DNA of 64,000 bases, from the NCBI GenBank assembly GCA_029856145.1, contig JAHQWK010000016.1, positions 32,001 through 96,000 of the forward strand, given 5' to 3'. This DNA is from Promethearchaeia archaeon. Lineage in GTDB: Archaea > Asgardarchaeota > Lokiarchaeia > Sigyniarchaeales > SOKP01. The position numbers were made by a program, and so were the translations under genes. Below the pieces are notes generated by a model. The model was given only the letters and a program-made list of their open reading frames with translations. It had not been told where the DNA came from and did no database searches. Of the stretch, positions 9,311-31,735 are shown one piece after another. Numbering within the stretch: position 1 is the first letter of the stretch; each line of letters opens with the position of its first letter.

Positions 9311-9921
9311 TTAGAACTCTAAAAATCCAGGATCATCAAAAATATCATCAATTTTTCGTTCTTTCTTTATCTTTGTATCCGTTTCAGCAAATAAGGATTC
9401 TTCATCAGTTCTAACCCCCCGTTCTAGTTCTTCAGTATCACGTTTTAATAATGCATCTTTTTCAAGCTGTTTATATTTTTCCGATCGTATTTTCCAATTA
9501 TCAACTTCATCCAAATTAACATTATCTTCTTCTAATAATATCGCTGCTTTTGTTTTACATAGATCTGATAAAATAGAATAGGATAGAATAATATCTCCCC
9601 ACTCATTATCTTCTTTTAAACTAACAATCCGTTTTTCTAATCTTAGTAATTCTTGGTCTGCATAATATATATCAATAAAATCCCCAAAAGCATCAACGGG
9701 TTCTGAGATTGAATTTACTAATACTTCTTTTGTTAAATCACAATTTCCACATTTTACAGTAGCAAAGGCACCTTTCTTCTTAATATCAGTGACTTTTACG
9801 CTTTTTTCACCGCATTCCATGAAAAATTGGAAATCAATTATTTTCATTCTGGACAGGTGAAAATTTTTGGTACTCTCTTAACTCTTTTTGGTGATACTTG
9901 TTTACGTTTTCTTCTTCCCAT
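9311..9921 (-). CDS. elf1: Transcription elongation factor Elf1 with C-terminal extension; two exons (9921-9847 and 9814-9311), about 192 aa
   Basis: Exon 1 MGRRKRK..PKIFTCPE + exon 2 CGEKSVKV..VKCGNC..EPVDAFGDFIDIY gives the Elf1 signature once 32 nt are removed. Confidence 0.88.
9815..9846 (-). other. Putative 32-nt BHB intron in elf1 mRNA
   Basis: Hairpin insert with TGA/TAA stops; central helix CCAG/AUGG, two AAU bulges, exon-exon helix UUUUCACC/GGUGAAAA. Confidence 0.8.
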
Positions 9922-28110: not shown

Positions 28111-29112
28111 TTGACGATTGAAAAAATCCTTCAAAGGATTGATGGTTTATTAAAGAAGGCTAATTATGAAACATTAGCACTGGGAAATTTTGCTATTAAT
28201 AAATGTAAATTCTGTTTTGATCTTTTAGTTAAAAAGGAAGATTTGGTCTTTAGTGTTAAAATCTTTCCCAATATAGATAACTTAAACCAAAGCGTTATTC
28301 ATGATATTAAATCTTTATCCTTAATCCTTAAATCAAAGCCCTTATTAATTGGAATCAGAAATCGGTATCAAAAATTAGAAGACAATACAATTTATGTAAG
28401 AGAAGGCTTACCCTTTATAACACTTAATACATTTGAGAATATACTCAATGAACAGTACCCTCATATCTTAGCAAGAAGAGGTGGTGGAGTAGTATTTTTA
28501 GATGGTACATTAATGAAAATTTTAAGAGAGAAACATTTAATAACACGAAAAGAACTTTCAGAAATCTTAGGAGTGACCAAGCGAACTATTTCTTCATATG
28601 AAAATGAATCTATGCGACCTTCCGAGAAAATTGCTGAAAAAATATTAGAAATCTTAGAAAATAATAATCTCTTTAAGAAAATGAATCTTTTTGAATGGAC
28701 TATTAAAGATAATATAGATGAAAAAGGAGTCTTAGAAGAAAAAGAATTAAGCCAATTTGAATCGCATGTTCAAGATATAATAAAAGATATTGGGCTTTCT
28801 TCTTATTGGTATAAAAAAGGATCTATTCCTTTCAAATTATCTTTATACTCTCAATCAGATAAAATAAGGTTAGATGACTTTTATCCTCTATTTTCTGGTA
28901 TATCTGAAGAACAGGGAAAAATTAATCAAATGAGCTTTCAATGCTTGAAGTTGTTTACAGATTTATTCCATAAAAATTCACTTTTCATAATTGATAATGA
29001 TATTAAAATTCCTGAGCCGTTTAAAAATGCAAATATCCCTATAGTTAAAATTAAAAATTTAGAAAAAGTTGATGACGAGGAAGAATTCGTTGAACTCATT
29101 CAAGAATCTTGA
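28111..29112 (+). CDS. Conserved archaeal HTH transcriptional regulator
   Basis: 'CFDLLVK..NIDNL..LEDNTIY.R.G', 'ARRGG..DG..LRE..LSEILGVTKRTISSYE'. Confidence 0.85.
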   Translation: MTIEKILQRIDGLLKKANYETLALGNFAINKCKFCFDLLVKKEDLVFSVKIFPNIDNLNQSVIHDIKSLSLILKSKPLLIGIRNRYQKLEDNTIYVREGLPFITLNTFENILNEQYPHILARRGGGVVFLDGTLMKILREKHLITRKELSEILGVTKRTISSYENESMRPSEKIAEKILEILENNNLFKKMNLFEWTIKDNIDEKGVLEEKELSQFESHVQDIIKDIGLSSYWYKKGSIPFKLSLYSQSDKIRLDDFYPLFSGISEEQGKINQMSFQCLKLFTDLFHKNSLFIIDNDIKIPEPFKNANIPIVKIKNLEKVDDEEEFVELIQES

Positions 29113-29818
29113 GGATGAAATAGAACTAATATGTGGGATAGACGAGGCTGGTAGAATTTAATTCGCTTCGAATTATATGTTAAAAGGCTCTGTCTTAGGC
29201 CCTATGGTTTTATGTGGAATTTGTTTCAATAAATCAAAAATAAACTTATTATCTGAAATAGGTGTTAAAGACTCAAAAAAATTATCTCCTATAAGGAGGA
29301 ATAAATTAGCTAATCTCTTGAAAAATTACTGCCACTCATATAAAATCGTTATAATTAGTCCTCAGGAGATTGATGAGAGAGAAAGTAAAAAAATTACATT
29401 GAATCGACTTGAAGAATTAAAAATGGCAGAGATTATCAACACACTGAAACCAGATGTCATTTTTATAGATGCTGTGGATGTAAATGAAGAAAGATTTGGA
29501 CATTCTATAAAAAAATTATTGAATTATATTCCTAAAAAAATAATTTCTGAACATAAGGCTGATGACATATATCCAATAGTTTCAGCAGGTTCTATTATGG
29601 CTAAAGTTAAAAGAGATTCTCTAATTGAAGAACTTCATAAAAAATATGGAAATTTTGGTTCAGGATACCCTTCTGATATTAGAACAATTGAATTTCTTAG
29701 AAATTATGTAAAAAATAATAAGAAACCACCTAAAATCGCAAGGAAATCATGGAATACAACTAAAAGAATAATAAATGAAGAGTTATCTACAAAAAAAATA
29801 ACTGATTTTCTTAATTAA
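29072..29818 (+). CDS. rnhB: Ribonuclease HII; two exons (about 29072-29154 and 29185-29818)
   Basis: ICGIDEAG-R|GSVLGPMV, KDSKKLS, EHKAD..YPIVSAGSIMAKV.RD, GSGYPSD, C-terminal PIP-like KITDFL. Start is ATG 29072 or TTG 29090. Confidence 0.92.
29155..29184 (+). other. Putative 30-nt BHB intron in rnhB mRNA
   Basis: Insert with an in-frame TAA; hairpin UAAUUCG-CUU-CGAAUUA; central helix UGGU/GUUA, bulges AGA and AAA. Confidence 0.82.
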
Positions 29819-30509
29819 TAACTTTTTTAACTATTAATACAATATGATTAGCAGCATATTTATAGATCTTTATACTTTCTAAGATCTTATATCCCGCTTT
29901 TTCTATTATCTCTTTCTCTTTTGCATAAGTAAGTTCAGATTTTTGAATACTGTCAATTGACTGAGACTTAATCAAAAGAATTAAAATTCCCTCATCCTTT
30001 AAATAATAATTGCAATTTTCTAACGCAATCTCAGCTTGCCGTGGCTGTGCAACATCTTGATAAATTAAATCTACATAAGTAAAAACGTATTTAGCATATT
30101 TATCTGGAAAGCGCGCATCTCCCAATATTGGAATAATATTTGTCCTATTTGAGATATTTTGGATTAATTGTCTCATACTTCTTTCAGCAAACTCTACACC
30201 ATAAATAATTCCAGAATTTATAATATCAGAAAGGTGAGAAATGGTGGTGCCTGAAGATGCTCCTAAATACAAGCATTTTAAATTTTCTGATAAAAAGCTT
30301 GTGATAGGGTTTGCTAGAATTAATGCTGCTAATTTACTTCTAAATGGATCCCATTCTCGATATTCTATACCCTTGTAAGTAATTAATTTCTCTCCAGATA
30401 TTCTTTTTCCTACATCTAAATTTTTTGTATAGAGTTTTAATCTTTCTTGAGGTCCTGAAATAAACACATTGTGAAATTTAGGATGTTTTCTAATCTCCAT
30501 TTTATACAT
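29811..30509 (-). CDS. flpA: Fibrillarin rRNA/tRNA 2'-O-methyltransferase
   Basis: 'EYREWDPFRSKLAA', 'LYLGASSGTT.SH', 'DVAQP.Q'. Confidence 0.97.
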   Translation of the reverse strand: MYKMEIRKHPKFHNVFISGPQERLKLYTKNLDVGKRISGEKLITYKGIEYREWDPFRSKLAALILANPITSFLSENLKCLYLGASSGTTISHLSDIINSGIIYGVEFAERSMRQLIQNISNRTNIIPILGDARFPDKYAKYVFTYVDLIYQDVAQPRQAEIALENCNYYLKDEGILILLIKSQSIDSIQKSELTYAKEKEIIEKAGYKILESIKIYKYAANHIVLIVKKVIN

Positions 30510-30529: not shown

Positions 30530-31735
30530 TTATCTTTTTTTCTTTGATTTCTTTTTTATACTCTTTACTGGTGGCGCTTTTTTAGGAGGATTTGGATATT
30601 TAATTTCAATTTCTTTGATTTTTTCTTCAATTCCTTGCGATAATTTATCACCTAAGAATTCACCTCCGAAATGATCTAATTTAGCAGCAACACCAATTTT
30701 CCCTGCAACAACTCTAGCAATCTTACCTCTAGTCCATGGTTTCGCCGATCTGATTTGGTTCCATTGAAATATTAAACCATGTTTCGGTCTTTTTTCACCT
30801 GTTTTAAGAAATCGATATAAAGCCTTTTCCGCGCCTAATAATTGAATTCTCGATGCTGGCATATAAGCTAATTTTTGTAAACTACCTGCCTTCGCTATTA
30901 ATTTTGCTCCAATCAAGGAACCAATTAAAGAGTTAATATTAGGAGCGAATTTTTCTAATATTTCTTCTAAATACTTCTCTAATTGTAAGCGATAATTATC
31001 TAATGAAATAATTTGATCTGCATAATTTTGTATCATAGAGAGATCAAAATTTGCACCCATTGATTCTAAAGCGTATTGCTCCAAAGCTTTAATTTTCCTT
31101 TCTTTTAAATCTACCTTATTTTTAATATTTTCATATGTAAAATTTTCTCTAGATCCTAAATTTGTAATCAAATTTGCCAAAGTAATATTATCTTCAATAA
31201 TTTTATCAGTTAATTCAGGAAAATGTAATCCATACCATTCCCTAAGATGACTTGAAAAGAGACTTATTGATTTTTTAATCACATCTAAAACCGTAATAAT
31301 ATGAGTAATTATATTATCTAAATGCCCGCTTGCCTCACTAACTTTTCTTCTTGTTAATTTATCGCTTATATCTTTATATTGTGTAAGGATCTCTTCACTT
31401 GTTTTATTTATTCCAACTTTCTTTAAGTGGTCTTCTAGACTTAAACGAAAAGCTTTGAGTTCTAACGATTTACTTTCGAAAAAAGTTTTATATCCTAATT
31501 TTTCTGAGGTAAGTGATTCTAATTTTATATTATCAAATATAAATTCATTAAAACCAGAATTTTTCAAATCTAATAAAAAGTCCTCAAATACTTTTTGAAT
31601 AATATCACTATCTAATGCATTATAAAATTCAATAATTTTCTCATAATCATCATCAAAATCAATGAAATTTAAGATGTTCCCAGACTCATCAAATGCAAAA
31701 ATTCCAATTAAAGTATCTGCTATGTACGACTTCAT
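30530..31735 (-). CDS. nop5: C/D box RNP protein Nop5 (Nop56/58)
   Basis: 'REWYGLHFPEL', 'PASRIQLLGAEKAL..PKHG'. Confidence 0.97.
   Translation of the reverse strand: MKSYIADTLIGIFAFDESGNILNFIDFDDDYEKIIEFYNALDSDIIQKVFEDFLLDLKNSGFNEFIFDNIKLESLTSEKLGYKTFFESKSLELKAFRLSLEDHLKKVGINKTSEEILTQYKDISDKLTRRKVSEASGHLDNIITHIITVLDVIKKSISLFSSHLREWYGLHFPELTDKIIEDNITLANLITNLGSRENFTYENIKNKVDLKERKIKALEQYALESMGANFDLSMIQNYADQIISLDNYRLQLEKYLEEILEKFAPNINSLIGSLIGAKLIAKAGSLQKLAYMPASRIQLLGAEKALYRFLKTGEKRPKHGLIFQWNQIRSAKPWTRGKIARVVAGKIGVAAKLDHFGGEFLGDKLSQGIEEKIKEIEIKYPNPPKKAPPVKSIKKKSKKKR

What the first reader, a model, noticed from the sequence alone, without database searches (positions are those of the whole stretch)
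29155..29184. 30-nt BHB intron in the RNase HII active-site motif DEAGRG
Seen (RNA): AGAC-GAG-G-C[UGGU]AG^A-AUUUAAUUCG-CUU-CGAAUUAUAU[GUUA]AA^A-G-G-CUC-U-GUCU. Unspliced: DEAGRI*. Spliced at canonical BHB positions: GGU AG|A GGC = DEAGRGSVLGP. The ORF-track protein (from 29177) lacks the catalytic DE and could not function. The rest of the gene is intact, in the usual rnhB-fibrillarin-nop5 context. Caveat: the central helix has three G.U pairs.
Basis: partly seen in the sequence, partly recalled or inferred. Interest (0 to 1): 0.9.

Follow-up and report, generated by a model that had tools for sequence, protein, structure and literature searches.

The report
tRNA-type mini-intron splits RNase HII gene
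The only RNase HII gene of this Asgard archaeon is broken in its active-site codons by a 30-base hairpin that is very probably an intron removed by the tRNA-splicing enzymes, a kind of coding-sequence intron that the papers I could search confirm in archaea only for one gene (cbf5).

Summary
Confirmed. A 30-nt insert (29155-29184) with an in-frame TAA splits the DEAGRG motif of the single rnhB of a Lokiarchaeia (Loki_b32-like) genome. The same site is occupied in 81 of 135 genomes of the family and in none of 265 other Asgard genomes searched. Inserts of 13-106 nt, mostly with different sequences, occupy it in Bathyarchaeia, Thermoplasmata, Woesearchaeota, Micrarchaeota and Altiarchaeota. All 105 distinct junctions break the frame unspliced. 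The central helix pairs in 94% of cells (27-56% in shifted registers) and follows exon wobble changes. The exons are under purifying selection (dN/dS about 0.15). EndA and RtcB are present, and single-copy pyrG, rpl11, uppS and aIF2-gamma of this genome are broken the same way. Not shown: a spliced RNA. This genome's BHB is among the weakest (8.6 kcal/mol above the best fold). Readthrough, ribosome hopping, split gene and pseudogene readings fail. Closest known: the crenarchaeal cbf5 intron. I found no paper on an rnhB intron; this scan noted it before on other genomes.

The parts
29072..29154 (+). rnhB exon 1 (27 codons plus AG of the split Arg codon); carries catalytic Asp and Glu and the first Gly of GRG
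   Evidence: its N-terminus resembles intronless 238-aa relatives P0075 and P0115; last 9 codons pN 0.007 against pS 0.33
29155..29184 (+). 30-nt BHB intron (predicted EndA cuts after the second base of each bulge); in-frame TAA at 29159-61
   Evidence: register fixed by five homologues
29149..29152 (+). 5' strand of the central 4-bp helix (exonic: Ala wobble base plus Gly codon)
   Evidence: pairs with 29179-82; covariation
29153..29155 (+). bulge 1 (AGA), cut after AG
29156..29178 (+). intron hairpin, 9-bp stem with a 5-nt loop closed by C-G
   Evidence: pair conservation 0.61-1.0 per position in 71 Loki-type 30-nt variants
29179..29182 (+). 3' strand of the central helix (GUUA here; ACCA, GCCA, CCCU and others in relatives)
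29183..29185 (+). bulge 2 (AAA), cut after AA; its last base is the exonic Arg wobble, a purine in 105 of 105 junctions
29185..29818 (+). rnhB exon 2; gene callers start it wrongly at ATG 29177 inside the intron (213-aa truncated product)
   Evidence: PDB RNase HII matches at E 1e-50 with a 10-residue gap at the insert
28111..29112 (+). upstream HTH regulator gene overlapping exon 1; conserved upstream neighbour in most of the family
29811..30509 (-). fibrillarin, convergent with rnhB
30530..31735 (-). nop5

Best explanation
The insert is a bulge-helix-bulge intron in the rnhB pre-mRNA. The transcript folds into exon stem, 4-bp helix, two 3-nt bulges and intron hairpin (fold inferred from covariation). 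The cell's two-subunit splicing endonuclease cuts after the second base of each bulge, and RtcB joins AG to A-GGC, rebuilding the Arg codon and a 238-aa RNase HII (inferred from EndA chemistry and the cbf5 precedent; not observed). Unspliced mRNA stops one codon after the Arg codon, so splicing is obligatory for activity. The intron is probably a tolerated parasite at a site where loss must be exact. It is inherited and repeatedly lost precisely within this family (inferred from the tree). It was gained or transferred separately in other phyla, in some beside a LAGLIDADG-like gene that this genome lacks.
For: Single rnhB. Insert in 81 of 135 family genomes and 50 of 54 of the genus, none in 265 other Asgard genomes. 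105 distinct junctions of 13-106 nt in all phases, 105 of 105 broken unspliced; helix paired 94% against 27-56% shifted; Watson-Crick pairing at the two wobble-derived positions 0.64 against 0.34 +/- 0.03 in partner shuffles (relatedness not controlled, but the pairs come from several phyla). Five homologues with AG-U in bulge 1 give Arg only with canonical cuts and Ser otherwise. Median dN/dS 0.15. Two EndA subunits and RtcB; an EndA match in all ten non-Loki intron genomes tested, nine over cut-off. Asgard EndA is the (alpha-beta)2 type with the loop linked to relaxed specificity (PMC5829648). pyrG, rpl11, uppS and aIF2-gamma are single-copy and split by 28-30-nt BHB-like inserts. The D18/E19 equivalents are essential and GRG senses the 2'-OH (PMC3025331).
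Against: The forced BHB is 8.6 kcal/mol above the minimum-energy fold here, near the weak end of 109 junctions (median 3.4). Some close relatives have a mismatch in the central helix. An RNase HIII-like ORF elsewhere on the contig could buffer poor splicing. My genome-wide scans without homology did not separate 3-nt bulges from control geometries, so the number of such introns per genome is not established.
Confidence: 0.92

Rival explanations
1. Translational bypass: the ribosome hops over the stop-containing hairpin, as in T4 gene 60.
For: A stop just after the Arg codon and a hairpin are hop-like features; the Loki insert is almost always 30 nt.
Against: Take-off and landing triplets do not match in 92 of 105 junctions. 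Pairing between exon and the far end of the insert is conserved in one register, which hopping does not need. The AG-U homologues need the junction to fall inside a codon.
Confidence: 0.02
2. Stop readthrough or recoding gives an enzyme with a 10-residue loop.
For: The insert is in frame in this genome.
Against: Stops are TAA, TAG or TGA, often two; 24 of 105 inserts shift the frame; TAA is the commonest normal stop in this genome. The loop would cut the GRG motif.
Confidence: 0.01
3. Split gene or re-initiation at ATG 29177, with two pieces working together.
For: An in-frame ATG lies in the insert and databases call a 213-aa protein.
Against: 27 of 73 30-nt inserts have no start codon after the last stop. 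The N-terminal piece would be a 28-residue peptide. The conserved BHB would be unexplained.
Confidence: 0.015
4. Pseudogene or assembly error, with the RNase HIII-like protein doing the job.
For: A second type-2 RNase H family ORF exists in this genome.
Against: The insert is in 81 independently assembled genomes, both exons are under purifying selection, and one search lists a second family match in only a handful of family genomes.
Confidence: 0.01
5. A real intron used as a regulatory switch (splicing efficiency tunes RNase HII level) or removed by an enzyme other than EndA/RtcB.
For: Weak G.U-rich helix here; a conserved C-closed five-base loop that EndA does not obviously need; a regulatory role was proposed for cbf5 (PMC2738675).
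Against: Many family members do without the intron; the geometry is canonical for EndA; no condition-dependent data exist.
Confidence: 0.1

Closest known systems
cbf5 pre-mRNA BHB intron of Desulfurococcales and Sulfolobales (Watanabe 2002; Yoshinari 2006; Yokobori 2009, PMC2738675)
   Same: Short (16-44 nt there), BHB or relaxed BHB boundaries, cuts between bulge bases 2 and 3, interrupts active-site codons, hetero-oligomeric EndA, lineage-specific precise losses, missed by annotation.
   Different: Different gene and phylum. The rnhB site is occupied in at least six archaeal lineages by mostly unrelated sequences, and intron-bearing genes are not one clade (AU p 1e-57), whereas cbf5 is one ancestral gain. 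The host carries several such introns. Splicing is shown for cbf5, not for rnhB.
Haloferax HVO_1309 5' UTR BHB intron (PMC7714728)
   Same: EndA substrate in an mRNA.
   Different: Lies in the untranslated leader and does not break a reading frame.
Asgard tRNA BHB introns (bioRxiv 10.64898/2026.10.13.758758)
   Same: Same motif, size range and enzyme; repeated gains.
   Different: That paper covers tRNA genes only; the words mRNA and cbf5 do not occur in its text.
Collaborative homing of ORF-less group I introns with free-standing endonucleases in phages (review PMC3984707)
   Same: An ORF-less intron at a conserved site with an endonuclease-like gene next to it, as in some non-Asgard rnhB loci.
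   Different: Those introns self-splice. The LAGLIDADG-like neighbour has not been shown to cut, and none was found in this genome or next to Loki rnhB.

Membership tests
Archaeal BHB (EndA-spliced) intron | 4-bp central helix flanked by two 3-nt bulges on opposite strands | tested here: met
   4 of 4 pairs here (three G.U); 94% across 105 junctions at this register only
Archaeal BHB (EndA-spliced) intron | Flanking helices on the exon and intron sides | tested here: met
   Intron stem 8 of 9 here and conserved in 71 variants; the exon stem is closed by C-G but imperfect
Archaeal BHB (EndA-spliced) intron | Cuts after the second base of each bulge rebuild the functional sequence | tested here: met
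   DEAGRG restored; five AG-U homologues allow only this register
Archaeal BHB (EndA-spliced) intron | Host encodes splicing endonuclease and ligase | tested here: met
   Two EndA subunits and RtcB; the C11 subunit shows Tyr, His and Lys at catalytic-like positions, read by eye
Archaeal BHB (EndA-spliced) intron | Spliced RNA exists in cells | tested here: inconclusive
   No reads could be laid; see Tried and rejected
Archaeal BHB (EndA-spliced) intron | Cleavage by EndA in vitro | not testable with these tools
   Needs bench work
RNase HII (type 2 RNase H) | Four catalytic carboxylates and the GRG motif | tested here: met
   Present only after splicing; PF01351 positions 1-199; alignment to PDB 2dfh and 2dfe; residue roles from PMC3025331
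Group I or group II self-splicing intron | Catalytic RNA core of hundreds of bases | tested here: not met
   30 nt; no Rfam match near a gathering score
Programmed translational bypass (T4 gene 60 type) | Matching take-off and landing codons | tested here: not met
   No match in 92 of 105 junctions, including this one

The most novel reading that the evidence does not exclude
This Lokiarchaeia family routinely splices many essential mRNAs (rnhB, pyrG, rpl11, uppS, aIF2-gamma, elf1) with its tRNA-splicing enzymes, and the rnhB active-site codon is a hot spot invaded across several archaeal phyla by ORF-less BHB introns that spread with an adjacent free-standing LAGLIDADG endonuclease.
Probability: 0.55. 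Interest if true: 0.88.

Novelty: new member of a known kind. Interest (0 to 1): 0.72.

Why it matters
The papers I could read give cbf5 as the one confirmed BHB intron inside an archaeal coding sequence. An obligatory intron in a DNA-repair gene, at one codon in several phyla and beside more such introns in essential genes of an Asgard lineage, means enzyme-dependent mRNA splicing is much commoner in archaea than described, including in close relatives of eukaryotes (compare IRE1/RtcB-type splicing; my own knowledge). It makes intron gain and loss in archaeal genes testable on one site with over 100 natural variants. It also shows that public annotation holds a catalytically dead 213-aa RNase HII for most of this genus.

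Tried and rejected
A spliced-junction pattern for rnhB and a with-or-without-intron pattern for the cold-shock gene found nothing in metagenome contigs; these blanks are not evidence. Among the 120 best protein hits none was a full-length protein of this subclade (DEAGR-GS). Full-length hits at 62-69% identity had GP, and the four I traced lie on multi-gene contigs that look like intronless relatives. Genome-wide BHB scans with a codon model gave no enrichment over control bulge sizes; only candidates confirmed by family matches or clear motifs are reported. Promoter/terminator and Rfam scans gave nothing above chance. No LAGLIDADG-neighbour homologue was found in this genome. The two roughly 30-nt tRNA introns of this genome that I looked at do not resemble the rnhB intron by eye. 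NCBI labels of some hits conflict with the rnhB tree (several labelled Hod-, Odin-, Thor- or Hermodarchaeota fall in the Loki family; the one labelled Methanosarcinales groups with Woesearchaeota-like rows), so I did not count them as separate phyla. Literature searches found no rnhB intron; subscription journals are largely not covered, and PMC2738675 says introns in other protein genes had been predicted in works I could not read.

Full report
Observation. The window encodes GIDEAGR, then 30 extra bases with an in-frame TAA, then GSVLGPMV. Removing 29155-29184 or 29156-29185 gives a continuous RNase HII. The read-through covers Pfam PF01351 positions 1-199, while the called ORF from 29177 starts at position 8 and lacks the catalytic Asp and Glu. 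Solved archaeal RNase HII structures align with a ten-residue gap at the insert. In PMC3025331 mutation of the D18 and E19 equivalents abolishes activity and the GRG motif senses the 2'-OH, so the insert splits the Arg codon of GRG. It is the only rnhB in a 97% complete genome. A second family hit at C18:144667-145191 looks like an RNase HIII-type domain in a 587-aa frame. The likely start is ATG 29072, giving 238 aa. Fibrillarin and nop5 are convergent, not co-oriented.

Organism. A pattern scan of named genomes returned mostly Promethearchaeota (Lokiarchaeia) MAGs, including Loki_b32, with near-identical inserts. I infer a Loki-3-type family; the genome itself is unnamed.

Distribution. In 400 Asgard genomes the interrupted pattern occurs in 81 of 135 of the family (50 of 54 in the genus) and in none of 265 others; the reversed control never matched. 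Order- and class-level relatives have a continuous gene. Within the family, intron-bearing and intronless genes are interspersed. The Loki inserts share a consensus, so repeated exact loss is the simpler reading there, though the tree cannot tell gain from loss. Outside Asgard the same codon carries inserts of 13-106 nt with mostly different sequences in Bathyarchaeia, Thermoplasmata, Woesearchaeota-type, Micrarchaeota, Altiarchaeota and one lineage labelled Nitrososphaeria, each among intronless relatives where relatives were searched. On a 191-row protein tree the label changes 32 times, at least 10 forced by well-supported branches. One clade of intron-bearing genes is rejected on a 70-row subset.

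Structure. Across 105 distinct junctions every insert breaks the frame if retained. The proposed central helix pairs in 94% of cells against 27-56% when slid by one to four bases. The intron strand follows synonymous changes in the exon strand (UGGU/ACCA, AGGG/CCCU, CGGC/GCCG, GGGG/CCCC); Watson-Crick pairing at those two positions is 0.64 against 0.34 +/- 0.03 after shuffling partners. Kin are not independent, but the pair types come from several phyla. This genome's BHB is weak on paper: 8.6 kcal/mol above the best fold, against a median of 3.4.

Cut sites. In this genome the boundary is ambiguous by one base. Five homologues (three Loki, two Woesearchaeota relatives) have AGU as first bulge; canonical cuts give Arg and the shifted cuts give Ser in the GRG motif. 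The last base of bulge 2 is a purine in 105 of 105 junctions while the middle base is a pyrimidine in 27, as expected if it is the Arg wobble. This supports EndA geometry and 29155-29184.

Function is kept. Median dN/dS of exon 2 against 32 relatives is 0.15, and the last nine codons of exon 1 have pN 0.007 against pS 0.33. The genome encodes two EndA subunits and RtcB. Asgard EndA is reported as the (alpha-beta)2 type with the insert tied to relaxed specificity (PMC5829648). Other single-copy genes are broken likewise: pyrG (one TAA inside), rpl11 (profile positions 1-26 and 27-58 separated by 28 nt), uppS and aIF2-gamma (two stops in the P-loop region). Each has a BHB-like boundary whose canonical cuts restore the motif. 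A cell with these genes must remove the inserts; that step is inferred.

Rivals. Hopping lacks matched codons in 92 of 105 cases. Readthrough fails on mixed stops and frameshifting lengths. Re-initiation lacks a start in 27 of 73. A pseudogene is contradicted by selection. A regulatory role is open but unsupported.

Spread. Following a lead from earlier scan notes, I found that rnhB loci with introns from several non-Asgard lineages (L064, L070, L085, L108, L126, L164, L281) carry homologues of one LAGLIDADG_3 plus HTH protein family, directly upstream in five of them. All tblastn hits of this family among my loci were intron-bearing. This resembles collaborative homing (PMC3984707). It is absent here, so it is at most the route by which the site was once invaded; this is an inference.

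What was not shown. No spliced RNA: the read tools gave nothing usable and junction searches were blank. An earlier scan note reports a spliced contig for another intron of this genome; I did not check it and do not count it as support.

Comparison and verdict. It works like, and by every sequence-testable feature belongs with, the EndA-spliced cbf5 intron (PMC2738675, PMC7714728). It is a new member in a new gene and phylum, notable for recurring at one codon across phyla and for having company in essential genes. I found no published report. The scan itself has noted this rnhB intron on other genomes. Confidence in splicing 0.92; interest 0.72.

Noticed in passing
window 9815-9846, minus strand: 32-nt BHB-like insert in elf1; canonical cuts restore the CPEC zinc motif.
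   Followed up: partly
G000 C28:14741-14768 (-), C3:195586-195615 (-), C23:64787-64816 (-), C5:34200-34229 (+), C6:11598-11627 (-): BHB-like inserts of 28-30 nt in rpl11, uppS, pyrG, aIF2-gamma and a cold-shock protein gene, each inside a signature motif.
   Followed up: partly
G000 C18:144667-145191 (-), outside the window: RNase HIII-like domain inside a 587-aa frame; a second family match appears in only a few family genomes.
   Followed up: partly
L064:6612-7688, L108:4703-5740, L126:2146-3177; homologues in L070, L085, L164, L281: LAGLIDADG_3 plus HTH gene beside intron-bearing rnhB in unrelated archaeal lineages, directly upstream in five loci; not hit in intronless loci held.
   Followed up: partly
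L222 and L192: Extreme sizes at the same rnhB site: a 13-nt intron with almost no inner stem, and a 106-nt A-rich one with a perfect BHB.
   Followed up: no
window 29189-29191: This subclade has Gly-Ser instead of the usual Gly-Pro after the intron; the Ser codon adds exon-exon pairs where the central helix is weakest, possibly an RNA-driven amino-acid change.
   Followed up: no
L296 (G176), L310 (G149): Intronless rnhB in a member of the intron-bearing genus, and one nested among intron-bearing genes: candidates for exact intron loss or allele replacement.
   Followed up: no
G000 whole genome: ARAGORN finds only 19 tRNA genes, several with introns, so many interrupted tRNAs are probably missed.
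   Followed up: no
G000 C18:28297-29604 (-): RtcB lies on the same contig just before the window.
   Followed up: no
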